From the NCBI GenBank assembly GCA_964520195.1, contig CAZFNX010000001.1:34421-98420 (forward strand): 64,000 nucleotides of DNA. The letters run 5' to 3'. The notes below the pieces were generated by a model that ran no database searches, had not been told where the DNA came from, and was given only the letters and a program-made list of their open reading frames with translations. The stretch comes from an uncultured Candidatus Saccharibacteria bacterium. GTDB lineage: Bacteria > Patescibacteriota > Minisyncoccia > Phycocordibacterales > CAIZLB01. Of the stretch, positions 23,331 to 63,830 are shown piece by piece. Numbering within the stretch: position 1 is the stretch's first letter; each line of letters starts with the position of its first letter. Both the position numbers and the translations under genes were made by a program.

Positions 23331-23368
23331 AAAATGTAGCCGTCCATCACGAATGCTAGAATTTTTCT
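23331..23368 (+). terminator. family-1 hairpin (conserved loop CGTCCATCACGAAT) between convergent HAD gene and efp
   Basis: Stem TAGC/GCTA plus flanking A/T pairing. Loop 23341-23354. Confidence 0.5.
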
Positions 23369-23408
23369 AAAATATTTTCAAATACTATATTACTGGATTG
23401 AAAAATAT

Positions 23409-23442
23409 AAAATCCCTACTTCGCATAAGCGGTAGGGATTTT
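23409..23442 (-). terminator. family-2 hairpin (11-bp stem AAAATCCCTAC/GTAGGGATTTT, loop TTCGCATAAGCG) 3' of efp
   Basis: Perfect 11-bp inverted repeat flanked by A/T runs, 25 nt downstream of the efp stop on the minus strand. Confidence 0.6.
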
Positions 23443-23466
23443 ACTATTTCGAGATTTCTTATGTAT

Positions 23467-24045
23467 TTACTTACTTACTGAAACTCGTTCTGCGTATTCT
23501 CCTGTATCTGTGTTTACTCTGATGATGTTACCTGGTTCTATGAACATAGGAGCAAGGATTTCAGCACCAGTCTCAAGAGTAATAATCTTGTTTCCACCTT
23601 TGGCTGTATCTCCTCGAACAGCTGGAGGTGCTTCAGTTACTTCTAGATCTATCTTGACAGGGAGCTTGACTCCAATAGGTATTTCTCCAAAGTATTTTAC
23701 ATCAATAATAGCGTTTGCTTTTAAAAACTTTCTACTGTCTCCAATAAGAGTATCAGCAAGCTTGAAACGTTTAGAAGGCTCGTTCTCTGGACAGAACCAC
23801 CATTCTCCTCTGTTGTTGTACAGATACTTAACCTTCATTGTTTCAATCTCAGCTTCCTCTGCTTTTTCAGTTGCTTGGAATGAGTGTTCAATAACTCGTC
23901 CACTAATAAGGTTTCGCATTTTTACTGCGTTTACAGGTTTTCTCATCTGCTTTCTGAAGATGTGATGATCAAGGATCTCATAAGGTTCATCTTCAAAAAT
24001 AATCATTTTTCGTGTGACAATGTCACTATATTCTATAATAGCCAT
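23467..24045 (-). CDS. efp: elongation factor P
   Basis: KOW/OB domains with conserved PAVRGDTAKGGNK...LETGAEI...GEYAERV. Confidence 0.85.
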   Translation of the reverse strand: MAIIEYSDIVTRKMIIFEDEPYEILDHHIFRKQMRKPVNAVKMRNLISGRVIEHSFQATEKAEEAEIETMKVKYLYNNRGEWWFCPENEPSKRFKLADTLIGDSRKFLKANAIIDVKYFGEIPIGVKLPVKIDLEVTEAPPAVRGDTAKGGNKIITLETGAEILAPMFIEPGNIIRVNTDTGEYAERVSVSK

Positions 24046-24095
24046 GAGTGTGAGTATATCGGTTTATGGCTTGTTTTGCAAGGATATGGTAGAGT

Positions 24096-25376
24096 TTGGG
24101 TATTATGCGACACAGTAATATTTTCACAAAGACACGAAAGGAGTATCCAAGTGATGAAGTGGCTAAAAACGCTCAGATGCTTATTCAGGCAGGTTTTATT
24201 CATAAAGAAATGGCCGGAGTGTATGCATATTTACCTCTAGGACTGCGAGTTATTGAAAAACTAAAGAATATCGCTCGGGAAGAGATGAATGCTGCTCGGG
24301 GACAAGAGATTCAGATGACAACATTGCAGAAGAAAGAGACGTGGGAGAAGACTGATCGATGGAGTGATGAGCAAGTGGATGTATGGTTTAAAAGTAAACT
24401 TGCAAATGGTACAGATATTGGTTTTGGCTGGTCACATGAAGAACCAATCACTGATATGATGATACATTTCATCAATAGTTATAAAAATCTTCCAGTATAT
24501 GTGTATCAATTTCAAACAAAATTACGTAACGAACTCCGTGCTAAAAGTGGCATCATGCGAGGGAGAGAGTTTTTAATGAAAGATTTATATTCATATAATA
24601 CAAATGAAATCGAACATGCAGCGTTTTATCAAAATATGATAGAAGCATATACAAAGTTTTATGACAGAGTAGGATTGGGTTCTGATACATTTTTAACTGT
24701 TGCTACAGGTGGTGCGTTCACCAAAAATACAAGTCATGAGTTTCAGACTATTTGTGATGCTGGAGAAGATATTGTGTATATAGATAGAAAACATAATATC
24801 GCATACAATACAGAAGCTCTTGAGAGTATGGACACTAAAGATGAGCTTATGAAAACGTGTGAACAAGTTAAAACAGCAGAGGTCGGGAATATCTTTAGTT
24901 TTGGAGGTGAAAAATCTGAGAAGATGGGTCTACTATTTACAGATACAGATGGAACACAGAAACCAGTTATTCTTGGATCATATGGTATAGGAATCACACG
25001 AGTTATGGGTGTAATTGTCGAAAAATATGCAGACGAAAAAGGACTTGTTTGGCCAAAAGCAGTAGCTCCATTTGAAATTGAAATTGTCTCACTTCATAAA
25101 GATAAAGACGATGCAACATATGTTGCAGCTTCTGATATATATGATCAACTAGTAAGCTGTCACTATGAATGTTTGATAGATGATAGACAGATGGGTATTA
25201 AAGATAAGCTGGAAAGTGCTGATATGTACGGTATACCTGTTCAGATTATTGTTGGTCCACGGACACTCGAGAAAGGTGTTGTTGAGGTGAAGGTGAGAAA
25301 GACAGGTGAAGTGCAAGAAATAGAGCTTGGAAAAGTTTCAGAGTTTGTTGATGAGATTTGGGAGAGTGTGTTTTAA
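24096..25376 (+). CDS. proS: prolyl-tRNA synthetase, bacterial-type N-terminus but lacking the INS editing domain (426 aa)
   Basis: N-terminus HKEMAGVYAYLPLGLRVIEKLKNIAREEM is ProRS-specific. Class II motifs are present. C-terminal HGTP-type anticodon-binding domain. Confidence 0.85.
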   Translation: MGIMRHSNIFTKTRKEYPSDEVAKNAQMLIQAGFIHKEMAGVYAYLPLGLRVIEKLKNIAREEMNAARGQEIQMTTLQKKETWEKTDRWSDEQVDVWFKSKLANGTDIGFGWSHEEPITDMMIHFINSYKNLPVYVYQFQTKLRNELRAKSGIMRGREFLMKDLYSYNTNEIEHAAFYQNMIEAYTKFYDRVGLGSDTFLTVATGGAFTKNTSHEFQTICDAGEDIVYIDRKHNIAYNTEALESMDTKDELMKTCEQVKTAEVGNIFSFGGEKSEKMGLLFTDTDGTQKPVILGSYGIGITRVMGVIVEKYADEKGLVWPKAVAPFEIEIVSLHKDKDDATYVAASDIYDQLVSCHYECLIDDRQMGIKDKLESADMYGIPVQIIVGPRTLEKGVVEVKVRKTGEVQEIELGKVSEFVDEIWESVF

Positions 25377-25447
25377 GATTTTCTGGTAAAATTTATACTT
25401 TTATATATCTTTTCTTTAGGAAAATTTCATGTATGTTTTTGTAATGT

Positions 25448-25948
25448 TTGTTAATGAACATTAAAGGTAAAACAATTGTGTATATAGATATGGCAAATCT
25501 TTCTATAGAATCAAGAAAGAAAAATATCATAATTGATATGTTTTTGATGTATACTTGGCTCATTGATAAATATGTAGCAGATGAGGTGTATATATTTACA
25601 GGTTATCTTAATAAGTATAAAGAAGAGTATGATACAAATAGTAAGATTGGATATAAATATATTTTTAAAGAAGTTATCTTCAATAAAGATGAGTATAAAA
25701 TAAAGGCGAATTGCGATGTTGATATTGCTATACAGGGTACAATCGATACTATTAATCATAATCTTAATCGTGCAATTTTGATTACAAGTGACGGTGATTT
25801 TTTAAGTCTTATAAAATTTTGGCTATCAAAAATTGTAATAGTCTCTATTATATCACCAGCGAATCCTGACAAATGCTCTTACTTACTAAAAAAAAGACAA
25901 TTTACCTATAACATATTTAAATCAAATTCTTTCAAGAATTACAAATGA
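25448..25948 (+). CDS. NYN/LabA-like (PIN-like) domain protein
   Basis: VYIDMANL ... CDVDIAIQGT ... AILITSDGDFLSLI matches the NYN (PF01936) acidic-residue pattern. Embedded in a very AT-rich stretch. Confidence 0.55.
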   Translation: MLMNIKGKTIVYIDMANLSIESRKKNIIIDMFLMYTWLIDKYVADEVYIFTGYLNKYKEEYDTNSKIGYKYIFKEVIFNKDEYKIKANCDVDIAIQGTIDTINHNLNRAILITSDGDFLSLIKFWLSKIVIVSIISPANPDKCSYLLKKRQFTYNIFKSNSFKNYK

Positions 25949-26041
25949 AAAGGCCCTCGATGAAGACAAAACATCATAAAGGCCCTTTTCTTGGATATGT
26001 ATACTATGCTAACAAAAAAAAGTTATTTTGTCAAATACTTA

Positions 26042-26482
26042 TTATTCTTTATGATACGGATGATTATGTAAAATAGTTATCGCTCGATAAACTTGCTCAC
26101 ATACAAGCATAGTTGCAAGTTCGTGAGGAAATGTCATAGGTGAGAGCGAGAGTTTTTGATCTGCAGTTTTGAGTTCTTCGATACTGAATCCAACACTTGG
26201 TCCAATAATAAAAATAATATGACTTGAGATGTGTGACTGTACATGCTCTATTTGTTTTGCAAATGTCTCTGATGTGTATATTTTTCCTTCCTCATCGAGG
26301 GTAAAGATATATGCACTTGGATATGATTTTTTTACATCAGCTACATGGTTGTGTTTTTTCTCTTCTTTAATATCAAAGAGCTGCACTTTTGCAAATCGTG
26401 AAAGTCTTTTTGTGTATTCGTTAATGAGAGGGGTGATGAGTTTGTTTTTAACTCCTGAGATGGTGATGATGGTGATATGCAT
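26042..26482 (-). CDS. rlmH: 23S rRNA (pseudouridine1915-N3)-methyltransferase RlmH (SPOUT)
   Basis: MHITIITISGVKNK...EYTKRL start and the C-terminal trefoil-knot region ELATMLVCEQVYRAITILHNHPYH. The track ORF extends to 26551; the internal Met at 26482 is the likely start. Confidence 0.8.
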   Translation of the reverse strand: MHITIITISGVKNKLITPLINEYTKRLSRFAKVQLFDIKEEKKHNHVADVKKSYPSAYIFTLDEEGKIYTSETFAKQIEHVQSHISSHIIFIIGPSVGFSIEELKTADQKLSLSPMTFPHELATMLVCEQVYRAITILHNHPYHKE

Positions 26483-26551
26483 GAGGGTATTGTAGCATGG
26501 TATAAAGTATGTACACTTATATAGAAACATGATATTTATTAAATCAAACAT

Positions 26552-27577: not shown

Positions 27578-27610
27578 TTATACAATATAATATTATATTT
27601 TTGTGTGTGA

Positions 27611-27646
27611 AAAACCCTCAGGCACACGGTGTGTGACTGAGGGTTG
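27611..27646. terminator. family-3 palindromic element AAAACCCTCAGGCACACGGTGTGTGACTGAGGGTTGA between convergent genes
   Basis: Outer stem AACCCTCAG/CTGAGGGTT and inner stem CACAC/GTGTG. The same outer arms recur at 44287-44324. Confidence 0.5.
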
Positions 27647-27670
27647 ATGGTCTCCGTCGAGAAAAGGGGA

Positions 27671-28354: not shown

Positions 28355-28566
28355 GACGTTACCTTTCTTTTGCGCGGGTATTCTACGTACCGCAAGTGAA
28401 TGTTCAGGGGTGAGGTAAGGTGTAGAAGGTCCTTAACTTGTATAGTATTATAGCATATATGTGTAATAAAAGCAAGGGTATACTCATCAAATCTTTGCAA
28501 TATATGGGTAGAAATATAAATTATTTAATATATACAATATTCATTTACATATAAATATGTTATAAT

Positions 28567-29514: not shown

Positions 29515-29560
29515 ACCCATATACTTTCTGGTAAGGTATGGTATTATCATCATAATTTTT

Positions 29561-32007: not shown

Positions 32008-32024
32008 TATATTTACTACATTTT

Positions 32025-36987: not shown

Positions 36988-39321
36988 ATGAGACTTAAAT
37001 CCCTCCACATACATGGATTCAAATCATTTGCTAAAAAAGCTGATCTTGTGTTTAACACAGCTATCACTGGAGTTGTAGGTCCAAACGGTTCAGGAAAATC
37101 AAACGTGGTAGAAGCTTTTCGTTTTGTGCTTGGTGAACAGTCTCTTAAAAGTATGCGAGGAAAGAAGGGCGAAGATATGATTTTTAATGGTGGTAAAGAT
37201 TTGACTCGAGCGAACCGTGCGTCTGTACGAGTTGTTTTTGATAATGCATTGTTGGATGTTGAAGGTGAATATAAGCGATTGTTTGATAGCTATAGTTTTG
37301 ACGAGGTAGTTATAGAACGCGCAGTGAACCGAGACGGGTCAAATGAGTATTTGATCAATGGTTCTGCGTGTCGACTTAAAGATATACAAGAACTGCTCTC
37401 TGAGGCAAATATAGGAGGTTCTGGGCATCATATTATCTCTCAAGGTGAGGCAGATAGACTTCTTTCTTCATCAAACAAAGAAAGAAAGGAGATGATTGAA
37501 GATGCATTAGGTTTAAAAATCTATCAGTATAAAAAAGAAGAGAGTGAAAAGCGTTTGCTTAAAACAAAAGAGCACATGAAAGAGGTTGAGTCTCTTCGAC
37601 GGGAACTTGCACCACATCTTCGATTTTTAAAGAAACAGGTTGAAAAACTTGAAAAAGCCAAAGAAGTACGCCAACAATTAACTGATCTGTATAAAGAATA
37701 TTTCGCATATGAAAAGGTGATTCTTGATGGTGAGATTGCTCAGATTGAACAGCTTCGTGTTGAACCAAAAAAAGAGTTTAGCGAGCTTGAACAAAAACTT
37801 ATTTCTATAAAACAGACCCTTGCGGCAACGGATACAACATCAAGTTTAACAGATGAGTTGTTTGCGCGAGAGCAGGAACTTAAACATATTAGACAGACAA
37901 AAGATAACTATTCTCGCGAGATAGGAAGATATGAAGGAGAAGTTGCCTATATTAAACGAAGTATAGAAAAGAAAAAAGAAAAGAAAGAGGCTGCTCTACA
38001 AGTAACACATCATGAGGCTGATGTGCCTGTATCTCGAAAAGGTATTCTTGAACTTATTCAACGAATCAAGACAACATTACACGATATTACCCATGGAGTA
38101 TATGGAACTTCAGAAGAGATTCGTCAGGCATCTCTAGATCTTATACAACAATGTGAGACGTATACACAAAGTATTGCCGATGCAACTTCTCAACCCCTTG
38201 TTGAAGATATCTATGATACATCTGAAGAAGAAGCGGAACTGGTAAAGATTCGAGAGTCTATTGTTAATGCAGAAGCGTTAAGTAAAGAGGCAAAGGATGC
38301 CGAACTTGTTCTTTTGGAAAAATACGAGACTGTTAAAAAACAAATTGAAGACGAGAAACATAAAAATGTTGAGTCAGAAAAAGAACTTCTTAAGGTGATA
38401 TCACGACAACATGAAGTACGAGCCGAGCTTGATAAAATAGATGTTCGAGAAGAGATGTATAAGGCACGAAAATCCGGATATGAACAAGAAATGATGGAAG
38501 CCGGAGTTCTTGTTGGTGTGCATGCATTACGTTTTGATACTGTCAATGTCGAAGTCAATAGTGAGGGGGTGATTGATAAAGATATTCAAAAAAATAGATT
38601 GCACACACTAGAAAAATATAAGATTCGTCTTGAAGAGTTAGGTGGTGCTGGAGATGAAAGTGTTCATAGAGAATTTACAGAGACTGAGGAGCGAGATCTA
38701 TTCCTTGCAAAAGAACTAGAGGATTTGACAGCTTCATTGACAAATCTTGAGACATTGATTACAGACATTACTAAAACTGTTGCTGATATGTTTACAACAG
38801 GTATAGATAAGATTAATAGTCAATTTTCAGTATTTTTTAAGCAAATGTTTGGTGGCGGTGAGGCTCGATTGGTGGTCACACAAGAGAAAAAACGGAAGCG
38901 TAAGCTTACTGATATAGAGGATGATGAAGATATGGAAGAAGAGACAAGTGAGGATGGTGAGGTTGAGATAGGTATTGATGTTTTTGTATCATTGCCACAT
39001 AAAAAACTTAAGGGTCTCTCAATGCTCTCAGGAGGAGAACGAGCGCTCACATCTATTGCACTTTTGTTTGCAATGAGTCAGGTAAATCCACCACCATTTA
39101 TCATACTTGATGAAACAGATGCTGCTCTTGATGAAGCAAACTCACGACGATATGGAGATATGATTGAGCTCTTGAGTAAGCATTCGGAACTGATTCTTGT
39201 GACGCATAACAGAGAGACTATGTCGAGAGCTGGAGTCTTATATGGAGTAACTATGGGTAATACTGGATATTCACAACTTCTGTCTATTGGATTTGAAGAG
39301 GCGAGTGTCAATGCTAAATAA
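36988..39321 (+). CDS. smc: SMC-family ATPase, short (777 aa) and without an identifiable hinge
   Basis: Head N-terminus MRLKSLHIHGFKSFAKK...GPNGSGKSNVVEAFRFVLGEQS. C-terminal signature LSGGERALTSIALLFAM and Walker B FIILDETDAALD. The middle is all coiled-coil. Confidence 0.75.
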   Translation: MRLKSLHIHGFKSFAKKADLVFNTAITGVVGPNGSGKSNVVEAFRFVLGEQSLKSMRGKKGEDMIFNGGKDLTRANRASVRVVFDNALLDVEGEYKRLFDSYSFDEVVIERAVNRDGSNEYLINGSACRLKDIQELLSEANIGGSGHHIISQGEADRLLSSSNKERKEMIEDALGLKIYQYKKEESEKRLLKTKEHMKEVESLRRELAPHLRFLKKQVEKLEKAKEVRQQLTDLYKEYFAYEKVILDGEIAQIEQLRVEPKKEFSELEQKLISIKQTLAATDTTSSLTDELFAREQELKHIRQTKDNYSREIGRYEGEVAYIKRSIEKKKEKKEAALQVTHHEADVPVSRKGILELIQRIKTTLHDITHGVYGTSEEIRQASLDLIQQCETYTQSIADATSQPLVEDIYDTSEEEAELVKIRESIVNAEALSKEAKDAELVLLEKYETVKKQIEDEKHKNVESEKELLKVISRQHEVRAELDKIDVREEMYKARKSGYEQEMMEAGVLVGVHALRFDTVNVEVNSEGVIDKDIQKNRLHTLEKYKIRLEELGGAGDESVHREFTETEERDLFLAKELEDLTASLTNLETLITDITKTVADMFTTGIDKINSQFSVFFKQMFGGGEARLVVTQEKKRKRKLTDIEDDEDMEEETSEDGEVEIGIDVFVSLPHKKLKGLSMLSGGERALTSIALLFAMSQVNPPPFIILDETDAALDEANSRRYGDMIELLSKHSELILVTHNRETMSRAGVLYGVTMGNTGYSQLLSIGFEEASVNAK

Positions 39322-39334
39322 AAATCCTTAAAAC

Positions 39335-39372
39335 AAAAAATGCAACCGTCCATCACGAATGTTGCATTTTTT
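39335..39372 (+). terminator. family-1 hairpin (12-bp stem AAAAAATGCAAC/GTTGCATTTTTT, loop CGTCCATCACGAAT)
   Basis: Perfect stem plus a T-run, between the convergent smc and cupin-like genes. Confidence 0.7.
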
Positions 39373-39398
39373 GTTTTTACGGATTCGAACACTAGTGC

Positions 39399-39785
39399 TT
39401 ATGCCTTCATGAGTGTAAAACTTTCTTTAGTTTCAGACATAAGGATGATAACAATGTCTCCCTCTAGTCTAAATAGTTTTCCTGCTGGTATGGTTATAAC
39501 TGTTTGAGTGTGTACAGATGTTGATTCAGGTGTATCTGAATTTTTATCTTTCATCTGTACTGTTGCAGTACCTTCAATTCCGAGAATATACAGTGTTGTT
39601 GATTGGCAGTATACAAAACCTTCTTTAGGTAATGAGTGTTTGATCTTCATAACGCCAGAAGCAGGGAATGAAGAATTGTCTTGAGATTCTTCAAGAATCT
39701 CTCTGGCTGTTTTAAAGGGTAATGTTGCAATATCCTGTGTTTTCATAATGGTTTGTAGTATACCATGGTATGTAAATACTGTCAA
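39399..39785 (-). CDS. small hypothetical protein, possible cupin-like beta-barrel
   Basis: 128 aa predicted from the ORF. Weak cupin-like pattern only. Confidence 0.35.
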   Translation of the reverse strand: MTVFTYHGILQTIMKTQDIATLPFKTAREILEESQDNSSFPASGVMKIKHSLPKEGFVYCQSTTLYILGIEGTATVQMKDKNSDTPESTSVHTQTVITIPAGKLFRLEGDIVIILMSETKESFTLMKA

Positions 39786-39807
39786 ATATACTTAAAAAAT
39801 ATAATTA

Positions 39808-39843
39808 AAAATCCTTGCATTCGTGATGGACGGCAAGGATTTT
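39808..39843 (-). terminator. family-1 hairpin, reverse orientation (stem AAAATCCTTGC/GCAAGGATTTT; minus strand reads CGTCCATCACGAAT)
   Basis: Lies 3' of rnr on the minus strand. Confidence 0.7.
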
Positions 39844-39858
39844 TAATTATATTTTCCC

Positions 39859-41874
39859 TTAAATCTTCAGAACCTCGAAGTCTACACTCTTTGTCTCAAG
39901 GTCTACTCCTCGAAGTCGAACATGAACTACATCACCAAGAGTAATAACTTTTTTTGTATTTTGTCCTATAACTTTATATGTTTTTCTATCGACTTCGAAG
40001 AAATCATTTCCAAGATCTTTAAGTCGTATAAGTCCTTCAGCAAGTGATTCTTTCTCTTGTAGGAAAATTCCAAAGTCAGCAATACCTGAAACAACAACAT
40101 CAAACTCCTGTCCGATACGTGCACTAAGGTATTCAACTTGTTTGTATCGTATACTTGCTCGCTCTGCTTCTGCCGCCTTGACCTCTTGATCAGAAGAAAC
40201 AGTACAAATATCTTCAAGAGAGTCTAGTATAGGTTGAGGAATTGGTTGTTTTGTGAGTATGTATTGCATGATGCGGTGCACACAGAGATCTGGATATCTT
40301 CGAATAGGGGATGTGAAATGAGTATAATATTCAAAAGCTAAACCAAAGTGTCCAATATTGACTGTCTTATAAGCAGCCTTGGCCATAGACCGAAGAGTTG
40401 CTGTTTTAATAGTTGTTTCAGCTGGATGACCTATGGCTTTTTCAAGAAGTTTCTGTATATCTTTAGCGTGAACCTTTTTTCCTGGATGAAAATCAAGTCC
40501 GAGTGCATTTACAAAAATCTCAAGATCTGTGATCTTTTCAGGGTCTGGGGCATCGTGAACACGATACACACCAAGAAGTTTTTTTGTCCCGTGTACATTG
40601 TTCTTAAACATATACTCAGCAACTTCTCGATTGGCCAAAAGCATAAACTCTTCAACAAGATGATTTGTAAAGACTCTGTCTTTTTTATATACCTGAATAG
40701 GAAAACCTTTGTCGTCAAGAATAAACTTAATCTCATCACTCTCAAAATCTATAGCTCCAGCTCGTTTTCGCTCTGCCTGTAGTTGTAATGCATATTCACG
40801 TAGACTAAATAATGCTGGAAATTCTGCTGTATTGCCAGTGTCTAAAACATCCTGAGCTTCTTCATATGAAAATCTTTTATCTGAGTGTATGAGAGTTTTT
40901 CCAAACCATTTTGATACAATCTGTTTATTTGCATCAAATTCAAAAATACTTGAAAAGGCAAATCTGTCCTCGTTAGGGTTTAGACTACACATTCCGTTTG
41001 AAAGCACCTCAGGTAGCATAGGTACTGTTCGATCTACAAGATATACAGAGAAGGCTCGTTTTCGTGCTTCTGTATCAAGTATAGTGCCAGGTCGTACAAA
41101 GTGAGACACATCGGCAATATGTATACCTATTTCAACATTACCATTTGGTAGTGTTTGGAAAGAAAGGGCATCATCAAAATCTTTAGCATCAACTGGATCA
41201 ATAGTGCATGTCCACACATGTCTCATGTCTCTACGAGCATGAATCTCTTCTTCTGTAACTGTTCCATGTTCTTTAACTGATCTCTTAGCATCTTCCTCAA
41301 CAGCAGGTGAGTGCTCCATGGCAAAACCGGCAGCCGCTATAATAGATCTCATTTCTGCTTGATGTTCTCCTTGCATACCAAATATTTCAGTAACACGACC
41401 ATAAAATTCTCGTGTTACTTCCGTGTTCGTATATCCTTCAGGTGTCGGAGTTCGTGTGATTGTAATCTTAGGTTTTTTTGTCCAGTCAATAACTATAAAA
41501 ACTTTTTCTCCAACTTTAACAGGTAGTGATGGATCATTAAGTAGTGTAAATATACAACTGAGTTTTTGGTTATCAGGTTTTGCATGTATACCTTTATCTG
41601 TGATATCTGTAACAATACCAACCATACTTCCACTACCTCGTTTCTGTATTTCAGTTATCTTTCCCTCTATCTCGCCCCATTTATTTGGTTTTGGAAATGT
41701 ATCAACCAGAACGGTGTCTCCAGGAAGTGCATCTAAGATGTATTGTGGAGGTATACCAATAGAATCTTCTTTCTTTGCAGATGGTGTTGATTGACCATTT
41801 GCTGACGTTTGCAAGGGTCTAACGTATCCTTTACCTTTGTTGTTGAGTGCTAAGACTCCTAATATAGAGGGCAT
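39859..41874 (-). CDS. rnr: ribonuclease R (RNB family 3'-5' exoribonuclease)
   Basis: RNB motif HFTSPIRRYPDLCVHR, a cold-shock-like N-terminus and a C-terminal S1 domain. Confidence 0.9.
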   Translation of the reverse strand: MPSILGVLALNNKGKGYVRPLQTSANGQSTPSAKKEDSIGIPPQYILDALPGDTVLVDTFPKPNKWGEIEGKITEIQKRGSGSMVGIVTDITDKGIHAKPDNQKLSCIFTLLNDPSLPVKVGEKVFIVIDWTKKPKITITRTPTPEGYTNTEVTREFYGRVTEIFGMQGEHQAEMRSIIAAAGFAMEHSPAVEEDAKRSVKEHGTVTEEEIHARRDMRHVWTCTIDPVDAKDFDDALSFQTLPNGNVEIGIHIADVSHFVRPGTILDTEARKRAFSVYLVDRTVPMLPEVLSNGMCSLNPNEDRFAFSSIFEFDANKQIVSKWFGKTLIHSDKRFSYEEAQDVLDTGNTAEFPALFSLREYALQLQAERKRAGAIDFESDEIKFILDDKGFPIQVYKKDRVFTNHLVEEFMLLANREVAEYMFKNNVHGTKKLLGVYRVHDAPDPEKITDLEIFVNALGLDFHPGKKVHAKDIQKLLEKAIGHPAETTIKTATLRSMAKAAYKTVNIGHFGLAFEYYTHFTSPIRRYPDLCVHRIMQYILTKQPIPQPILDSLEDICTVSSDQEVKAAEAERASIRYKQVEYLSARIGQEFDVVVSGIADFGIFLQEKESLAEGLIRLKDLGNDFFEVDRKTYKVIGQNTKKVITLGDVVHVRLRGVDLETKSVDFEVLKI

Positions 41875-44527: not shown

Positions 44528-44564
44528 AAAAAAACCTTACTTCGCCTAAGCTGTAAGGTTTTTT
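44528..44564 (-). terminator. family-2 hairpin (12-bp stem AAAAAACCTTAC/GTAAGGTTTTTT, loop TTCGCCTAAGCT) 3' of rpsA
   Basis: Perfect stem with U-runs on both sides. The loop is 10/12 identical to the efp hairpin loop. Confidence 0.65.
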
Positions 44565-45704: not shown

Positions 45705-45845
45705 GTACGGTAGTTTTGTGTTCTTGGAAATGTCTGAAAAGGGAACGCAAGGGTTACAAACCGTATATGTGTTTTATTAATGAATACCACTGGACTATAA
45801 CAAAAAAAAGCTATTTTTGCAAGGCTATGTGATACTCGAAAAATA

Positions 45846-45888
45846 AAAAACCTATGCCAGTTTGAGAGCATAGGTTTTTTATTTTTGA
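45846..45888 (-). terminator. Rho-independent terminator 3' of rpmA (AAAAAACCTATGC/GCATAGGTTTTTT)
   Basis: 13-bp perfect stem with T/A runs. Confidence 0.65.
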
Positions 45889-51042: not shown

Positions 51043-51969
51043 TTACCTCTGCAACCACACATAAATATCTTCCAAGGCTTTCACTGCGTCACCACATGCA
51101 ATGTTGTTTTGATGATAGAGTCCATCTGTACAGTCTCCAGCTGCCCATATACCAAGAACTGATGTTCTCTGTGTTCGAGGATCTACTTTGATGTTTCCAG
51201 ATGGTGTCGTGTCAACAATATTTTTAACATAACTTGTATTCGGTTCTTGTCCTATTTCAACAAAAATACCTTCGACGTTCATCTTTTTTTGTACACCAGC
51301 TTGGGTATATGTCACACTCTCTACAAACTGTGTTCCATGTATCTCATCAATGGCTGCATTGATAACGAGTTCAATATTTGCTTTTTTCTTAACACTCTCA
51401 AGGGTTATCTCATCACCTCGGAATGTTTCTGTTCTATTAAAAATATATACTTTTTTACAGTACGCTGAAAGTTGTAATGCACTTTCAAGTCCTGCATTAC
51501 CTCCGCCAACAACGATAACATCTTGCTCTGCAAAAAATGGTCCATCACATGAGGCACAATAGGTAAGTCCTTTGTGTTCAAATGTATCAGCTCCAATAGC
51601 TTGAAGTTTTCTTCGAATACTTCCTGTTGTAACAAGAACTGTTTTTGTTTCTATGTATTCAACTTCGCTACCTTTTTTCTGTATATGGACCAGAAAAGAA
51701 TCAGTGCCTTGTTGCACGTCTATCACACGAGTTTTATCTCGAATCTCAAGCACTGTGCCTGCATACTCTCGAGCATGAGCTTCTAGATTTTGGGCAAGTT
51801 GAGCGCCGCTTATATGAGGTGTTCCTATCCAGTTTTGAATATCTTCTGATACAATACTTTGACCTCCAAAACTATCGGTTACAAGTACACTTTGTATTTT
51901 TTTTCGAGCAGCGTATACAGCTGCCGAAACACCAGCAGGACCTCCACCTAATATAACAAGATCAACCAT
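51043..51969 (-). CDS. trxB: thioredoxin-disulfide reductase
   Basis: FAD motif VILGGGPAG, redox-active CASCDG and NADPH motif VVGGGNAGLESA. Confidence 0.85.
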   Translation of the reverse strand: MVDLVILGGGPAGVSAAVYAARKKIQSVLVTDSFGGQSIVSEDIQNWIGTPHISGAQLAQNLEAHAREYAGTVLEIRDKTRVIDVQQGTDSFLVHIQKKGSEVEYIETKTVLVTTGSIRRKLQAIGADTFEHKGLTYCASCDGPFFAEQDVIVVGGGNAGLESALQLSAYCKKVYIFNRTETFRGDEITLESVKKKANIELVINAAIDEIHGTQFVESVTYTQAGVQKKMNVEGIFVEIGQEPNTSYVKNIVDTTPSGNIKVDPRTQRTSVLGIWAAGDCTDGLYHQNNIACGDAVKALEDIYVWLQR

Positions 51970-55097: not shown

Positions 55098-55340
55098 TTA
55101 TTTACTTTTTTGTGTATTGAAAAACTTTCCTAGTTTGATATCTGCAAGTCGAGCCTCGTTGTTTTTGATCTTTTTAAGAGTCGCCATCTTAGTTTTGTAT
55201 GCTGAAAGACCTCTTTCTGCGTATCGTTTAGCTCGTACTTTATTAAGACCTCCCCAAGTTTGTATTTCCTTAGTGAATCTTCGAAGTATTGAAGATGCAG
55301 ATTCGTTTGCTTTTTTAGATATGATAACGTTTAATGACAT
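55098..55340 (-). CDS. rpsU: 30S ribosomal protein S21 (probable)
   Basis: ILRRFTKEIQTWGGLNKVRAKRYAERGLSAYK resembles S21 (ALRRFKR...GVLAEVRRREFYEKP). Start chosen at the internal Met; the track ORF extends to 55376. Confidence 0.5.
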   Translation of the reverse strand: MSLNVIISKKANESASSILRRFTKEIQTWGGLNKVRAKRYAERGLSAYKTKMATLKKIKNNEARLADIKLGKFFNTQKSK

Positions 55341-55441
55341 GCGGTACATTGTAGCATAAAAGGGAAAAGAGGGCAAATGTCATAATTATATATTTATTTA
55401 AGATATATACATGAGTGTTATGTTTACGATATACTTACATC

Positions 55442-59155: not shown

Positions 59156-59196
59156 GAGGCTTTGTTGCACTTGTGATAAACTTAGGATTATTAATT

Positions 59197-60108: not shown

Positions 60109-60229
60109 TTCGGGGACCCCACAAAGTAACCTTTGTGAGCCTTGTATATCATTGTACTATTTTGTAGTTAGTTATGCAAGTTTTATGAATCCATACAAAT
60201 TCCCTTAATCCTGTGCTATATTTACCAAC

Positions 60230-62626
60230 ATGACTCCAGCAGATAATCATTTCTATAATCATAAAAAACAAGACGCCCTATGGCTTAAACAGTGGGCCAA
60301 AGACGATATTTACAAAGCCGCACAGTCTTCTACAAAGAAGAAAATGTATGTGCTTGATATGTTTCCATATCCATCTGGTGCAGGGCTCCATGTGGGGCAT
60401 CCGAGAGGATATATAGCTAGTGATGTGTATGCTCGTATGAAGCGTATGCAAGGGTACAATGTACTTCATCCTATGGGATATGATGCTTTTGGGTTACCTG
60501 CAGAACAGTATGCTATTAAAAACAAGGTACACCCTCGAAAGGCAGTTGAAATCAATGTGAAGACTTTTGAAAAACAACTCGAAAGTATTGGTCTTTCATT
60601 TGATTGGTCACGACGTATCAATACAACTGATCCTGAGTATTACAAATGGACACAGTGGATCTTTTTAAAGCTGTATGATTCTTGGTATGATGAGAAAAAA
60701 CAAAAAGCTCGACCCATCAAAGAGCTTGTAGAGATTCTTGCAAAAAAAGACAAGGCCTGGAAAACGTACAATAAAAAAACAAAGCAAGATATTCTTATGA
60801 ATCATCGTCTTGCCTATGAAGGGTATAGTGAAGTGAACTGGTGTCCTGAACTTGGTACTGTGCTTGCAAATGATGAAGTTATTGATGGAAAAAGTGAACG
60901 AGGTGGTTTCCCTGTGGAAAAGAAAATCATGCGTCAATGGTTTATGCGTATTAGTGCATATGCTGACAGACTTTTAAGTGGACTTGATGGATTAGACTGG
61001 TCAGATCATATAAAAACTATTCAGAGAAATTGGATCGGGAAAAGTGAGGGATATGAAGTAACGTTTCAAGTTGTTGGTGCTCACGCAAAGTCAGTAGAGC
61101 CTATTACCGTATACACAACAAGACTAGATACACTTTCAGGTATGACATTTGCTGTTGTTTCAAAAGATCATCCATTTGCAAAAAATTATATAGAACAAAC
61201 TAAGCATTGGATTGTTGATCCTGAAAATCAACATACAACAGAGAAAAAAGGTATTCTTATTGATGGTATTCAAGTGTTGCATCCTGATACAAAAAAACAA
61301 CTTCCTATATACGTGACTAACTATGTTATATCAACATATGGAACTGGTGCTGTTATGGGTGTGCCTGATATGGATGAACGAGATTATGCATTTGCAGAAA
61401 AATATAATATATCTGTGACAAAAGTTGTCTTCGAAGACGCGGCAAAGATTGCAAAAAGAATCGGCGCAAAAAAAGTTTCAAAATATAAAATGCGAGATGC
61501 TGTCTTTGCGCGTCAGAGATATTGGGGAGAGCCAATACCACTTCGTCACGACAAAGATGGTGTGATTACACCTCTTAAAAATACAGAATTACCACTCACA
61601 CTTCCTAATGTTTCTTCATATGCTCCAACAGGAACAGGTGAATCACCACTTGCTGGAATCAAGTCATGGGTCAAAGAAGGATTAGAGACAAACACTATGC
61701 CAGGATGGGCGGGATCAAGTTGGTACTTTTTACGATACATGGATCCTACTAACAAGTCGGCGCTTGCAAGTAAAAAAGCTATTGATACTTGGAAACAAGT
61801 TGATATGTATGTTGGTGGGGCAGAGCATGCGACAGGTCACCTACTATACTCACGATTTTGGAATAAGTTTTTGTATGATATAGGTATTGCAAAAACAGAT
61901 GAACCGTTTAAGGCTCTTCGAAATCAAGGTATGATCCTTGGTCCAGATAATAGAAAAATGAGTAAGAGTTGGGGTAATGTTATCAATCCAGATGAATGTA
62001 TTGCTACATATGGTGTAGATGCCTTTCGAATGTATGAGATGTTTATTGGTCCATTTGATGCAAGTATGCCTTGGTCAACTGAAAGTATTATCGGTACACG
62101 TAGATTTGTTGATAGAGTGTATAGACTTCATGAAAAAGTTCTTGCTCAGGATATCAGTGTCAAGAGTGATGTCAAGGTTGTCTCACAGTTACATAAAACT
62201 ATTCAAAAAGTTACTTCTGATATAGAAAGCTTTAACTTTAACACTGCTGTTTCTGCGTATATGATTTTGTTAAATACAATAGAGGAGGGGACTATATCGA
62301 GAAGTGATTTTGAAATATGTATTACCCTACTTGCTCCATTTGCAATATCTATATCTGAAACTATATGGAAAAAACTAGGACACACAGACTCTGTGCATCT
62401 TGCTCCATGGCCAAAGTACAATGCTAAAAAAGTTGTTGAAGAATCTGTAACTGTTGGTATTCAGGTTAATGGAAAACTACGAGGAGAGATAGAAGTGACT
62501 GCGTCTGATGAAGAGAAAGATGTTATTGCAAAAGCATTGACCATTGTAGCTACACATGTACAAGGTAAAGAGATTAAAAAAACTATTTACGTGAAAAATA
62601 AAATAGTAAGTATTGTGGTGGGGTAG
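60230..62626 (+). CDS. leuS: leucyl-tRNA synthetase
   Basis: MFPYPSGAGLHVGHPRGY (HIGH), KMSKS, and a CP1 editing insertion. 798 aa. Confidence 0.95.
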   Translation: MTPADNHFYNHKKQDALWLKQWAKDDIYKAAQSSTKKKMYVLDMFPYPSGAGLHVGHPRGYIASDVYARMKRMQGYNVLHPMGYDAFGLPAEQYAIKNKVHPRKAVEINVKTFEKQLESIGLSFDWSRRINTTDPEYYKWTQWIFLKLYDSWYDEKKQKARPIKELVEILAKKDKAWKTYNKKTKQDILMNHRLAYEGYSEVNWCPELGTVLANDEVIDGKSERGGFPVEKKIMRQWFMRISAYADRLLSGLDGLDWSDHIKTIQRNWIGKSEGYEVTFQVVGAHAKSVEPITVYTTRLDTLSGMTFAVVSKDHPFAKNYIEQTKHWIVDPENQHTTEKKGILIDGIQVLHPDTKKQLPIYVTNYVISTYGTGAVMGVPDMDERDYAFAEKYNISVTKVVFEDAAKIAKRIGAKKVSKYKMRDAVFARQRYWGEPIPLRHDKDGVITPLKNTELPLTLPNVSSYAPTGTGESPLAGIKSWVKEGLETNTMPGWAGSSWYFLRYMDPTNKSALASKKAIDTWKQVDMYVGGAEHATGHLLYSRFWNKFLYDIGIAKTDEPFKALRNQGMILGPDNRKMSKSWGNVINPDECIATYGVDAFRMYEMFIGPFDASMPWSTESIIGTRRFVDRVYRLHEKVLAQDISVKSDVKVVSQLHKTIQKVTSDIESFNFNTAVSAYMILLNTIEEGTISRSDFEICITLLAPFAISISETIWKKLGHTDSVHLAPWPKYNAKKVVEESVTVGIQVNGKLRGEIEVTASDEEKDVIAKALTIVATHVQGKEIKKTIYVKNKIVSIVVG

Positions 62627-62648
62627 GGTTATATGAGATACTTATGTC

Positions 62649-63119
62649 ATGCACAACACTGTTGATATACATATTGAGGAAATAGACCTGAAAGAACATC
62701 CACATAAGTTAGAAGAATTTCAAACCACTGAATGGGCATTGTCTGATACTGAACATTTTGGAGAAGTGTTGAGTGACTATAGTAAAAAAAAGTTTCTCTA
62801 TGTTGCGCGACAAGATGATAAGATAGTTGCATATATTGCTCTTGAGACAAATCTAGGTGTTGCTACTATCGATGTTGTGATTGTAAAACTTTCAGAAAGA
62901 GGACAGGGAATAGGTAAGGAGTTGATTAAGTTTGTGATTGAAAAGGCGCGCAAGAAAGAATGTCACGTGATCAAGCTTGAGACAGGGGTGAGTTGGAAAG
63001 CTCGACTTGTATATGAAAAACTAGGATTTAAGATTCGAGCCGTGCTTCCAAACTACTATGGAAATCAAGAATACGTTCTTATGGATATGAAGTTACAGGA
63101 GAATCCGTATGATAACTAA
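62649..63119 (+). CDS. GNAT family N-acetyltransferase
   Basis: Motif A ...SERGQGIGKELIKFVIEKARKK... Confidence 0.75.
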   Translation: MHNTVDIHIEEIDLKEHPHKLEEFQTTEWALSDTEHFGEVLSDYSKKKFLYVARQDDKIVAYIALETNLGVATIDVVIVKLSERGQGIGKELIKFVIEKARKKECHVIKLETGVSWKARLVYEKLGFKIRAVLPNYYGNQEYVLMDMKLQENPYDN

Positions 63120-63131
63120 AAAAGTCAAAAG

Positions 63132-63169
63132 AAAAAAACTAGCAGTCCATCACTAATGCTAGTTTTTTT
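63132..63169 (+). terminator. family-1 hairpin, first of a tandem triplet (stem AAAAAAACTAGC/GCTAGTTTTTTT, loop AGTCCATCACTAAT)
   Basis: Perfect 12-bp stem plus a T-run directly after the GNAT stop. Confidence 0.7.
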
Positions 63170-63190
63170 CTTTTTCCTTTTTCAAAATTC

Positions 63191-63216
63191 GATTTAAAGC
63201 AGTCCATCACTAAATC
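63191..63216 (+). repeat. family-1 hairpin, second copy (short stem GATTTA/TAAATC, loop ...AGTCCATCAC)
   Basis: Partial motif copy within a 6-bp-stem hairpin. Confidence 0.45.
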
Positions 63217-63226
63217 TAAAACACGA

Positions 63227-63262
63227 AAAATCACAACCGTCCATCATGAATGTTGTGATGTT
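63227..63262 (+). terminator. family-1 hairpin, third copy (stem ATCACAAC/GTTGTGAT, loop CGTCCATCATGAAT)
   Basis: 8-bp stem followed by GTTTTGTTTTT. Confidence 0.6.
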
Positions 63263-63305
63263 TTGTTTTTAGATTTCAAAGAAACGTGATATATTGAGTT
63301 GTATT

Positions 63306-63764
63306 ATGGAAACATTACAACAAACAATAAAATCACAAATTAAAGAAGCCATGATGGCTAAAGATGCTGTACGACTGACAGTTGTACGAGGGTTATCTTC
63401 TGCTATGACAAATGAACTCGTTACAAAAGGACGTATGCCTACAGACGCTCTCTCTGATGAGGAAGTGCTTGCGGTTATTCGACGACAAGTTAAACAACGA
63501 AAAGATGCTATTGATCAGTTTATAACAGGAGGACGACCTGAGCTTGCAGAGAGTGAACAAGCTGAGCTTGCTATTCTTGAGGCCTATCTTCCAGCGATGA
63601 TGTCTGAGGCAGATGTTCGCACAGCTGTTCTTGCAAAACAAACAGCCATGGGTATTACTGACAAAAAAGATGCAAATAAACTTATGGCAGAAGTCATGAA
63701 AGATCTTAAAGGGAAGGCAGATGGTACAGTTGTAAAAGCTGTAGTTGACGGATTGTTTGCATAA
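63306..63764 (+). CDS. yqeY: GatB/YqeY-domain protein
   Basis: LTVVRGLSSAMTNELV...AELAILEAYLP is the YqeY pattern. The track ORF starts at 63294; the Met at 63306 is the likely start. Confidence 0.7.
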   Translation: METLQQTIKSQIKEAMMAKDAVRLTVVRGLSSAMTNELVTKGRMPTDALSDEEVLAVIRRQVKQRKDAIDQFITGGRPELAESEQAELAILEAYLPAMMSEADVRTAVLAKQTAMGITDKKDANKLMAEVMKDLKGKADGTVVKAVVDGLFA

Positions 63765-63792
63765 CGTATTGTTTGGTTCAGTAGGAAAAAAT

Positions 63793-63830
63793 AAAAAACT
63801 CAACATTCGTGATGGACGGTTGAGTTTTTT
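63793..63830 (-). terminator. family-1 hairpin, reverse orientation (stem AAAAAACTCAAC/GTTGAGTTTTTT; minus strand reads CGTCCATCACGAAT)
   Basis: Perfect 12-bp stem with T-runs. It probably terminates a minus-strand gene whose 3' end enters the window at about 63843-64000. Confidence 0.65.

What the first reader, a model, noticed from the sequence alone, without database searches (positions are those of the whole stretch)
23331..63830. Terminator-like hairpins with variable stems but a conserved 14-nt loop (N-GTCCATCAC-K-AAT): 8 copies, including a tandem triplet
Eight hairpins share a loop sequence while each has a different stem. They are at 23341, 39347, 39819 (reverse), 48361, 63144, 63201, 63238 and 63805 (reverse). 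The loop is CGTCCATCACGAAT or AGTCCATCACTAAT; copy 63238 has CATCATG. The stems are perfect 8-12 bp A/T-started arms such as TGCAAC, CACCAGC, CTAGC, CTCAAC, CCTTGC and CACAAC. All copies sit at gene 3' ends. Where the flanking genes are co-directional, the loop reads GUCCAUCAC on the sense strand of the upstream gene. Three copies are stacked within 130 bp between the GNAT gene and yqeY. Stem variation with loop conservation is the opposite of what replication-driven repeats (REP/MITE) or stem-located DNA-uptake signals would show. It argues for selection on the single-stranded loop. Possible explanations are an RNA-binding-protein or RNase recognition site, a kissing-loop partner, a transcription-termination factor site, or a loop-located uptake/recognition signal. 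I know of no described terminator family with this loop.
Basis: seen in the sequence. Interest (0 to 1): 0.75.

Follow-up and report, generated by a model that had tools for sequence, protein, structure and literature searches.

The report
Terminator hairpins with a conserved cap
About half of the transcription-terminator hairpins in this uncultured ultra-small (Patescibacteria) bacterium and some relatives carry the same 14-base loop on otherwise unrelated stems, which points to an undescribed clade-specific signal at gene ends that something in the cell reads.

Summary
GTCCATCAC occurs 8 times in the window against 0.32 expected. Seven hairpins (one has the CAT variant), each flanked by an A-run and a T-run at a gene 3' end, carry the 14-nt loop MGTCCATCACKAAT. 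One further copy (63201) has no stem and one (51540) is a coding coincidence.

I found 15 more hairpins, with different stems, in related Patescibacteria MAGs and metagenome contigs. The family is discrete: copies are perfect or absent. It is patchy among close relatives.

The loop is structured: a 3-bp mini-helix (C-G or A-U, G-C, U-A), a CCAUC pentaloop and a 3' AAU bulge, with perfect covariation.

Even so, 17 of 20 scorable copies read sense to the nearest upstream gene.

Best reading (about 0.42): a clade-specific factor recognises this cap on the transcript, or on the non-template DNA strand, at mRNA 3' ends. Rivals are a DNA-level signal (for example uptake or self-marking) and a selfish REP-like repeat. 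No Rfam family or paper matches it. The function remains inferred.

The parts
23331..23364 (+). Motif hairpin 1. Loop 23341-23354 is CGTCCATCACGAAT. The stem is weak and imperfect (4 perfect bp). It lies 3' of the HAD hydrolase gene, in a convergent spacer with EF-P that also holds a second, non-motif terminator at 23408-23443.
   Evidence: dG -9.1, z -1.5; 51.6 bits
39330..39377 (+). Motif hairpin 2. The perfect stem is 17 bp; loop 39347-39360 is CGTCCATCACGAAT. The stem starts 8 nt after the SMC stop codon, and the loop is sense to SMC.
   Evidence: dG -24.2, z -5.7; 56.4 bits
39796..39855 (-). Motif hairpin 3. The perfect stem is 23 bp; the loop (39819-39832) reads CGTCCATCACGAAT on the - strand. 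It lies 3 nt after the RNase R stop in a co-directional context and is sense. The ortholog in L132 keeps the outer stem but has the A..T loop type.
   Evidence: dG -29, z -7.0; 55.2 bits
48343..48392 (+). Motif hairpin 4. Loop 48361-48374 is AGTCCATCACTAAT. It lies 8 nt after the L21 stop and is convergent with RecR. Orthologous spacers in relatives hold 0, 1 or 2 motif hairpins.
   Evidence: dG -25.5, z -7.5; 55.2 bits
63127..63174 (+). Motif hairpin 5. Loop 63144-63157 is AGTCCATCACTAAT. It lies 7 nt after the GNAT acetyltransferase stop, co-directional with yqeY, and is sense.
   Evidence: dG -22.1, z -8.1; 56.8 bits
63201..63214 (+). Stemless 'satellite' copy, AGTCCATCACTAAA, directly abutting the base of hairpin 6. 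Analogous satellites lie next to hairpins in L134 (644) and L141 (874).
   Evidence: 15.7 bits, loop part only
63212..63276 (+). Motif hairpin 6. Loop 63238-63251 is CGTCCATCATGAAT. The C-to-T change turns the G-C pair of the mini-helix into G-U on the sense strand. It lies upstream of yqeY.
   Evidence: 47.8 bits
63793..63830 (-). Motif hairpin 7. The loop (63805-63818) reads CGTCCATCACGAAT on the - strand. It sits between convergent yqeY (28 nt away) and a 163-aa gene (13 nt away) and is sense to the nearer gene. In the 97%-identical strain L009 the loop is flipped and carries 2 substitutions.
   Evidence: dG -14.7, z -5.0; 56.5 bits

Best explanation
These are ordinary intrinsic terminators of the two-way type (A-run, stem, T-run). 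Their tip has been replaced by a conserved 14-nt cap.

In single-stranded form the cap folds into three parts: a 3-bp mini-helix (C-G or A-U, G-C, U-A), a CCAUC pentaloop, and an unpaired AAU on the 3' side. It sits on an invariant C-G closing pair.

I propose that a clade-specific trans-acting factor reads this cap on the transcript, or equivalently on the non-template DNA strand in the transcription bubble. The factor is most likely a protein. It would act at mRNA 3' ends, either helping termination at hairpins weakened by a 14-nt loop or protecting or marking the 3' end against exonucleases such as the RNase R encoded here.

The stems are free to drift by compensated changes. The loop flips often, through strand switching or recombination between the two stem arms. 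Selection then keeps most copies in the sense orientation. Lineages that lost the factor let the loop decay.

Shown: the structure, the conservation, the position, the orientation bias, the flipping and the patchy distribution. Inferred: that a factor exists, that it reads RNA, and what it does.
For: 1. Enrichment: 8 copies against 0.32 expected.

2. Position and form: every hairpin starts 1-28 nt after a stop codon and has A/T-run flanks.

3. Spread: 22 independent hairpins with unrelated stems occur in the window species, MAG JAZKFG01 and about 9 other metagenomic lineages.

4. Discreteness: covariance-model scores are 40-57 bits for members and 26 bits or less for everything else, so copies are intact or absent.

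5. Mini-helix pair counts:
- pair 11-21 is CG 12, AU 8, with no mismatch;
- pair 12-20 is GC 19, GU 1, and the G-U is a pair only on the sense strand;
- pair 13-19 is UA 20.
The mini-helix fold is within 0.2 kcal/mol of the minimum free energy.

6. Orthologous sites: the yqeY/163-aa hairpin has an identical loop in the window and in L190, with two compensated stem changes. The RNase R hairpin differs between the window and L132 by a switch from C..G to A..T.

7. Orientation: 17 copies are sense and 3 antisense to the nearest upstream gene (binomial p about 0.003; gene calls). This includes two opposed hairpins 100 nt apart in L143, each sense to its own gene, so the bias follows transcription and not replication.

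8. Flip rate: there are 2 loop inversions against 13 substitution clusters in 11 kb between two strains. Flips are therefore fast, and a neutral orientation would be randomised.

9. Stability within the window species: in 10 contigs the two co-directional hairpins never flip. The one flipped copy, in L009, is also the one that has decayed.

10. Loss of constraint elsewhere: the nearest relatives have no copy in 33.6 kb (about 4 expected), and their orthologous loops are unrelated. This fits loss of a trans factor.
Against: - Three intact copies are antisense in clear contexts (L137, L139 and the second L032 copy).
- One species carries both orientations at a co-directional site, in 2 and 2 contigs.
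- Complete invariance of 14 nt is more than most RNA-binding proteins demand.
- Three stemless satellites keep the 9-mer exactly while their flanks differ. This hints at sequence-level rather than structure-level constraint, or at recent partial duplication.
- No candidate reader protein was identified in the window.
- There are no expression or 3'-end data.
- The orientation count relies on a nearest-gene rule for convergent spacers. In strictly co-directional spacers alone, the count is about 4 loci sense, 2 antisense and 1 polymorphic, which is not significant.
- The mismatch types in the stems (G-T 7, A-C 3) do not discriminate between strands.
Confidence: 0.42

Rival explanations
1. A DNA-level recognition signal that merely sits in terminator loops because, in a very compact genome, they are the only place a 14-bp motif is tolerated. 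Possible roles:
- an uptake or self-recognition sequence for natural transformation, like DUS or USS;
- a Chi-like self marker;
- a nucleoid-protein site, comparable to the IHF site between inverted REPs in E. coli RIP elements.
It would be read on double-stranded DNA or on an extruded cruciform, so orientation would not matter.
For: - The loop inverts between near-identical strains, and both orientations persist in one species at a co-directional site.
- Intact antisense copies exist.
- The copy distribution is discrete (perfect or absent), the motif is lineage-specific and patchy among relatives, and two sequence variants exist. This resembles uptake-sequence dialects.
- Stemless satellites keep the exact 9-mer.
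- With DNA energy parameters the mini-helix fold is the minimum-energy structure.
- Patescibacteria are widely reported to carry competence genes. This is my background knowledge and was not tested here.
Against: - The 17:3 sense bias tracks local gene direction, including opposed hairpins 100 nt apart.
- There is no excess of the motif, or of 1-mismatch variants, in coding sequence or in free intergenic DNA (13 one-mismatch sites against about 10 expected). True uptake sequences are common in genes.
- Density is about 1 per 8 kb, lower than for DUS or USS.
- Covariation C..G to A..T, together with a retained asymmetric AAU bulge, is not expected for a double-stranded DNA site.
- No paper mentions uptake sequences in Patescibacteria.
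Confidence: 0.2
2. A selfish or neutral repeat. A tiny hairpin core would spread among terminators by ectopic template switching or gene conversion that uses the shared A-run and T-run arms as microhomology. Alternatively, a REP/RAYT-like or other HUH-type enzyme that recognises a hairpin loop would mobilise it. It would have no function for the host.
For: - Hairpin-associated strand switching is clearly rampant here. Loops of 3, 14 and 15 nt flip between strains.
- Stems are almost all perfect (385 Watson-Crick pairs among 413 stem positions), as expected from palindrome correction.
- The distribution among relatives is patchy, and the number of motif hairpins per orthologous spacer varies (0, 1 or 2).
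- Partial satellite copies abut hairpins, and hairpins occur in tandem at 63127-63276.
- A conserved loop on variable stems is the hallmark of HUH nick-site hairpins (background knowledge).
Against: - Without selection, loops should decay as fast as the neutral loop does in the P0122 species (5 of 14 positions retained on an identical stem). Instead they are 14/14 identical across species.
- Inner-stem sharing between non-orthologous copies is no more than chance: about 2 six-mer coincidences against about 1 expected (my count).
- No transposase, Rep or RAYT gene was found among the proteins scanned with Pfam, which cover most but not all genes in the window.
- This model does not explain the sense bias.
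- No real copies were found in viral contigs.
Confidence: 0.2
3. A target or partner for another nucleic acid. In this reading the loop pairs with a complementary RNA. Sense CCAUC loops and antisense GAUGG loops could kiss each other, or the partner could be a guide or small RNA, or the loop could be a specific cleavage site for an endoribonuclease toxin. A MazF/PemK gene lies at 7153-7551.
For: - Full invariance of the loop is what base-pairing with a fixed partner would demand.
- Loops of opposite orientation are perfectly complementary and sometimes lie 100 nt apart (L143).
- MazF-type genes occur in the window and in L190.
Against: - The covarying mini-helix would occlude 6 of the 14 nucleotides.
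- No complementary sequence exists in the window other than flipped copies.
- No partner RNA was identified.
- This reading is speculative.
Confidence: 0.08

Closest known systems
Intrinsic (Rho-independent) bidirectional terminators
   Same: A stem followed by a T-run and preceded by an A-run, placed a few nucleotides after stop codons, often shared by convergent genes. Stems evolve by compensated changes.
   Different: Loops of known terminators are short (3-8 nt) and not conserved between genes. Here a 14-nt loop is identical across genes and species and has its own substructure. The tool's terminator scan, limited to loops of 3-8 nt, missed all of them.
REP/BIME elements with RAYT transposases; RIP elements with a central IHF site (E. 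coli and relatives)
   Same: Short extragenic palindromes at gene 3' ends, present in many copies and specific to a lineage. RIP elements carry a protein site between inverted arms.
   Different: In REPs the stem sequence, together with a 5' GTAG-type tetranucleotide, is conserved, while the centre varies. Here the pattern is the reverse. No RAYT gene was seen in the window.
DNA uptake sequences (Neisseria DUS, Pasteurellaceae USS)
   Same: A short, invariant, over-represented, lineage-specific motif that is often associated with terminators and exists in sequence variants ('dialects').
   Different: DUS and USS form the stems as inverted pairs, are frequent inside genes and have no transcriptional orientation. 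This motif sits singly in loops, is not enriched in genes, and is biased 17:3 to the sense strand.
Protein-binding capped hairpins such as lambda boxB (N protein), HIV TAR (Tat) and MS2/PP7 operators
   Same: A helix, a small bulge, a short upper helix and a 5-6 nt loop, with invariant bulge and loop bases. In those systems this architecture is read by a specific protein.
   Different: This is a resemblance of architecture only. The sequence is unrelated, those elements are not terminator tips present at many genes, and no binder is known here.
Origin or nick-site hairpins of HUH endonucleases (for example the CRESS-DNA virus nonanucleotide loop, or rolling-circle plasmid origins)
   Same: An invariant loop sequence on stems that differ between replicons.
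   Different: Those occur once per replicon, next to a Rep gene. Here there are many chromosomal copies at gene ends and no Rep or relaxase gene in view.
Flip-flop inversions of hairpin loops in chloroplast non-coding DNA
   Same: The loop between two inverted arms inverts repeatedly between close relatives while the arms stay unchanged (plastid literature surfaced).
   Different: The plastid loops are not a conserved multi-copy motif. Here flipping is superimposed on a strongly conserved sequence with an orientation bias.

Membership tests
Intrinsic terminator | A G+C-containing stem followed directly by a T/U run, downstream of a stop codon | tested here: met
   all seven hairpins lie 3-28 nt after a stop codon and have T-runs (and A-runs).
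Intrinsic terminator | Short loop (typically 3-8 nt) with no conserved sequence | tested here: not met
   The loop is 14 nt and invariant. The consensus scan with loops of 3-8 nt missed every copy.
Intrinsic terminator | Transcripts end at the T-run | not testable with these tools
   No RNA 3'-end data are available.
REP/BIME (RAYT-associated) repeats | Conserved palindromic stem sequence shared by the copies | tested here: not met
   Stem columns vary freely; only the closing C-G and an adjacent R-Y pair are constrained.
REP/BIME (RAYT-associated) repeats | A RAYT (Y1 transposase) gene in the genome | tested here: inconclusive
   None among the window's genes, but the whole genome was not available.
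DNA uptake sequence (DUS/USS type) | Motif strongly over-represented in the genome | tested here: met
   8 against 0.32 expected in the window.
DNA uptake sequence (DUS/USS type) | Occurs in both orientations without regard to transcription, and also inside genes | tested here: not met
   17:3 sense bias. The only coding copy is an ancestral coincidence. One-mismatch sites are at chance level.
DNA uptake sequence (DUS/USS type) | Biased uptake of motif-bearing DNA by a competence system | not testable with these tools
Integron attC sites | Conserved R/L boxes at the outer ends of an imperfect palindrome with a variable centre, at cassette 3' ends | tested here: not met
   Conservation is central and the outer arms are A/T runs. 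The flanking genes are housekeeping genes.
HUH-endonuclease nick-site hairpin | Invariant loop on variable stems | tested here: met
HUH-endonuclease nick-site hairpin | A Rep, relaxase or Y1-transposase gene adjacent or in the genome | tested here: inconclusive
   None in the window or in the fetched flanks with Pfam calls. Whole genomes were not searched.
K-turn / K-loop | A 3-nt bulge followed by tandem sheared G-A pairs | tested here: not met
   By inspection of alignment A3, the bases flanking the AAU bulge are C-G and G-Y on either strand, not G-A/A-G.
Any Rfam family | Score at or above the family's gathering threshold | tested here: not met
   Only one tRNA in the window. Permissive scans of two regions gave only generic hairpin matches far below threshold.

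The most novel reading that the evidence does not exclude
A subclade of Paceibacteria-like Patescibacteria marks roughly half of its mRNA 3' ends with a structured 14-nt 'terminator cap' read by a dedicated, still unknown factor. This would be a sequence-specific layer on intrinsic termination or 3'-end stability that is not known in bacteria. Because the cap sits between perfect inverted arms, it can be switched off and on for individual genes by rapid loop inversion, which would make it a potential per-gene phase-variation mechanism.
Probability: 0.3. Interest if true: 0.85.

Novelty: new variant of a known kind. Interest (0 to 1): 0.66.

Why it matters
Intrinsic terminators are regarded as factor-independent structures with no sequence identity of their own. 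This family has an invariant, structured tip. It is conserved across species while the stems drift. It is biased to the sense strand, and it is lost as a set in sister lineages. Together these features suggest that some bacteria add a sequence-specific reader to termination or to mRNA 3'-end handling.

The element occurs in Patescibacteria, where almost nothing is known about gene regulation. It gives a concrete handle for finding a new RNA- or DNA-binding factor: a 14-nt bait, together with phylogenetic profiling of motif-positive against motif-negative genomes.

The fast loop inversions are also of practical interest. They are a mutation class that could confound strain comparison and assembly, and that could act as a switch.

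Tried and rejected
**Searches that found nothing**
- Literature searches for the 9-mer returned only primer noise, and searches for the 13-mers gave no relevant hit. Searches on uptake sequences in Patescibacteria, loop inversion, terminators in the candidate phyla radiation, and 'conserved loop / variable stem' gave nothing that describes this element.
- Rfam at gathering threshold and at permissive thresholds gave no family.
- The viral-contig scan gave 36 single hits. None has A/T-run hairpins; two have 5-bp stems by chance.
Only MAG JAZKFG01 was informative.
- Look-ups: P0131 (the JAZKFG01 YqeY) was not on record. The look-up with the 128-aa protein gave one short contig that breaks inside the hairpin loop.

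**Models considered by inspection and rejected**
- K-turn or K-loop: no G-A pairs next to the bulge.
- T-loop.
- CsrA site: the antisense loop contains AUGGA, but most copies are sense.
- IHF, DnaA-box or LexA-box similarity: only 4-5 nt.
- Complementarity to the 16S 3' end: only 5 nt.
- Small ORFs starting at the loop's AUG: no ribosome-binding site, and they are products of the T-runs.
- An inversion of the SMC-RNase R cassette between the two opposed hairpins: the 128-aa and 110-aa proteins are unrelated.

**Ideas tested and not supported**
- Stems generated by fold-back copying next to an inserted motif. Rejected because non-motif terminators in the same genome have equally long perfect A/T-run stems.
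- Copy-and-paste of whole hairpin cores. Sharing of inner stems between non-orthologous copies is at chance level.
- G-T against A-C mismatches in the stems as a strand test: too few to tell (7 against 3).
- Assembly artefact as the cause of the flips. This is unlikely: stems of 11-24 bp are shorter than the assemblers' final k-mers as far as I know them (background knowledge, not checked). The flips also travel with linked SNP haplotypes.

Full report

GTCCATCAC occurs 8 times in the 64-kb window. Dinucleotide-preserving shuffles give 0.32, and none of 100 shuffles reaches 8.

Six copies sit at the tip of strong hairpins flanked by an A-run and a T-run. Their RNA folds range from -14.7 to -29 kcal/mol, and five have z-scores of -5 to -8. 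These are the copies at 39347, 39819 (- strand), 48361, 63144, 63238 (the CAT variant) and 63805 (- strand).

The remaining copies need comment:
- Copy 23341 has the intact loop on a weak stem (4 perfect bp, z -1.5).
- Copy 63201 has no stem of its own and lies against the base of the 63238 hairpin.
- A ninth exact 9-mer, at 51540, was not listed. It lies inside the thioredoxin-reductase-like gene, has no hairpin, and is present in the same coding context in a relative that lacks the family (L142). It is a coding coincidence.

One-mismatch variants outside the hairpins are at chance level: about 13 against about 10 expected.

All hairpins follow stop codons of ordinary housekeeping genes: a HAD hydrolase, SMC, RNase R, L21, a GNAT acetyltransferase and a 163-aa protein next to YqeY. 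About half of the terminator-like hairpins in the window (7 of about 14) carry the motif. The others have equally long, perfect A/T-run stems with different loops. Long perfect stems are therefore a property of this lineage's terminators, not of the motif.

**2. What organism, and where else does the motif occur?**

The window's proteins occur only in metagenome assemblies. Their homologs are named Parcubacteria, Paceibacterota or 'Patescibacteria group'.

It did find one Patescibacteria MAG, JAZKFG01, with 4 copies in A/T-run hairpins with new stems. A stricter pattern in the metagenome collection gave 12 loci. Ten of them are true hairpins, again with different stems. Contigs fetched through L21 and YqeY homologs added two more lineages.

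In total I count:
- 22 independent hairpins;
- 3 stemless satellites, each directly abutting a hairpin base (window 63201, L134 644, L141 874);
- 2 decayed copies.

A covariance model built from 20 copies (R1) scores members at 40-57 bits and everything else at 26 bits or less. Copies are either essentially perfect or absent.

Viral contigs hold only chance hits. No Rfam family matches, and no paper mentions the sequence or such an element.

**3. Anatomy**

The alignment of 20 copies shows these invariant features:
- the 9-mer;
- AAT on its 3' side;
- the closing C-G pair;
- an R-Y pair next to the closing pair;
- a pyrimidine at stem position -4.

The two positions flanking the 9-mer are either C..G (12 copies) or A..T (8 copies), never mixed. 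They form the outer pair of a 3-bp mini-helix. The pair counts are CG 12 / AU 8, then GC 19 / GU 1, then UA 20, with 100% of cells paired. This leaves a CCAUC pentaloop and an unpaired AAU on the 3' side.

The single G-U, at 63238, is a pair only on the motif-sense strand. The mini-helix fold is within 0.2 kcal/mol of the minimum free energy for RNA, and it is the minimum with DNA parameters. Both loop types coexist in the window genome.

**4. Evolution at orthologous sites**

*yqeY / 163-aa spacer*:
- The window and L190 (YqeY 83% identical) have the identical loop. Their stems differ at two compensated positions.
- The P0122 species (88%) has the same stem as the window but a diverged 15-nt loop.
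- L191 (86%) and L192 (81%) have unrelated loops.

*RNase R terminator*:
- The window and L132 share the outer stem. They differ in the inner stem and in loop type (C..G against A..T).

*L21 / RecR spacer*:
- The window has one copy, sense to L21.
- L143 has two opposed copies that flank a plain terminator.
- L134 has one copy, sense to RecR, plus a satellite.
- L142, L144 and L185 have none.

The relatives closest by L21 (92%: L142, L184) and L191 together show no copy in 33.6 kb. About 4 would be expected at the window's density.

The loop is therefore held constant where it is kept, and it is free to decay elsewhere. The family is present or absent by lineage.

**5. The loop flips**

In four contigs of one species that encode an identical YqeY, the GNAT-yqeY spacer is identical except for the 14-nt loop. 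Two contigs read AGTCCATCACTAAT and two read its exact reverse complement. In the same contigs, a diverged 15-nt loop and a 3-nt loop also flip.

Over 11,161 aligned bases, two strains differ by 13 substitution clusters and 2 loop inversions. Inversion per hairpin is therefore far faster than substitution per site.

The window and the 97%-identical L009 differ by a flip at 63805, and the flipped copy has two substitutions that break the mini-helix.

An assembly artefact is unlikely. The arms (11-24 bp) are shorter than the assemblers' final k-mers as far as I know them (background knowledge, not checked), and the flips are linked to SNP haplotypes.

**6. Orientation**

I scored each copy against the nearest upstream gene. 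Gene calls were checked with Pfam where needed.

| Class | Count | Copies |
|---|---|---|
| Sense | 17 | including all 7 in the window |
| Antisense | 3 | second L032 copy; L137 (L25 to a hydrolase gene); L139 (SecG to the malic enzyme gene) |
| Tie | 1 | L087 |
| Polymorphic | 1 | the P0122 species |

The two-sided binomial p is about 0.003. Without orthologous duplicates the count is 15:3 and p is about 0.008.

The bias follows local gene direction. In L143, two hairpins 100 nt apart each face their own gene, so the bias is not a replication-strand effect. In strictly co-directional spacers alone the numbers are too small to be significant. Because flips are fast, a persistent sense bias implies selection on orientation.

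**7. Interpretation**

The data fit best a cis-element read in single-stranded, sense form, on the transcript or on the non-template strand.

The architecture (helix, 3-nt bulge, 3-bp helix, pentaloop) resembles protein-binding hairpins such as boxB or TAR. That is a resemblance and not membership. What the factor does is inference. A 14-nt loop should weaken an intrinsic terminator, so a helper of termination or a protector of the 3' end is plausible.

The rivals are listed here with what counts against each:
- **A DNA-level signal parked in loops (uptake or self-marking).** Supported by the flipping, the discreteness and the patchiness. Weakened by the sense bias, the absence from genes and the covariation.
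- **A selfish REP-like or HUH-mobilised repeat.** Supported by the evident strand-switching activity and the satellites. Weakened by cross-species invariance of the loop, by inner-stem sharing at chance level, and by the lack of a candidate enzyme in view.
- **A nucleic-acid partner or toxin target.** Speculative.

**8. Novelty and verdict**

The components are known: intrinsic terminators, extragenic palindromes and hairpin-loop inversions. The combination has no described counterpart that I could find. It consists of an invariant structured tip on variable terminator stems at many genes, biased to the sense strand, specific to a lineage, and flipping.

I rate it a new variant of a known kind. 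It is real, and it is of good interest for RNA biology and for Patescibacteria biology. Its function is open.

Noticed in passing
L186/L188 vs L187/L189 (9934-9945 in L186); L189 5129-5143; L186 10567-10574; window 63805-63818 vs L009 1519-1532: Hairpin loops of 14, 15 and 3 nt are exactly inverted between otherwise near-identical strains. There are 2 flips against 13 substitution clusters in 11 kb. This fast mutation class resembles plastid 'flip-flop' hairpins and is not restricted to the motif.
   Followed up: yes
window 23408-23443 and 44529-44564; L142 6956-7003: A second small terminator family shares both inner stem and loop: CCYTAC-TTCGNNTAAGCK-GTARGG. It has 2 copies in the window against 0.05 expected. 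The 44529 copy has an ortholog in L142. At the same orthologous site, JAZKFG01 (L032 2851) carries the GTCCATCAC motif instead.
   Followed up: partly
window 45839-45886; L142 8287-8334; L191 9449-9496: A third recurring terminator tip, ATGC-CAGTNNNNRA-GCAT. It includes a non-orthologous site in L191 with the same inner stem (CCTATGC) as window 45839.
   Followed up: no
L142 10462 (- strand) and L191 9468 (+ strand): Two non-orthologous terminator loops in the motif-negative sister lineage(s) share the 8-mer AGTCGGCG. I estimate chance at about 0.02. Like the A-type motif (AGTCCATCAC), it starts with AGTC, so it may be a different 'dialect' of loop signal.
   Followed up: partly
window 63201-63214; L134 644-652; L141 874-882: Stemless copies keep the exact 9-mer but not its flanks. 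Each lies directly against the base of a motif hairpin, in the same orientation, 34-37 nt from the loop copy. They are either products of partial duplication or a second binding site.
   Followed up: partly
window 39321-39859 vs L032 7541-7670, L132 300-780, L142 1126-1590: The spacer between convergent SMC and RNase R is a variable slot. It holds an unannotated 128-aa ORF in the window, an unrelated 110-aa ORF in L142, another small ORF in L132, and nothing in JAZKFG01.
   Followed up: partly
window 55379-55422 vs L001/L002 2525-2774: Strains that are 99.8% identical differ by a replacement of about 44 bp with about 250 bp in the divergent promoter region between the YbeY-side small gene and the 654-aa gene.
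   Followed up: no
window 7121-7154 and 7153-7551: A MazF/PemK-type toxin gene starts at the end of a terminator hairpin whose 8-nt loop, ATTCATCA, matches GTCCATCA at 6 of 8 positions. No upstream antitoxin ORF is obvious. L190 also carries a PemK gene.
   Followed up: no
L194 (whole contig, 1118 nt): A metagenome contig of the window species ends exactly inside the loop of the 39796-39855 hairpin. These long palindromes break short-read assemblies.
   Followed up: no
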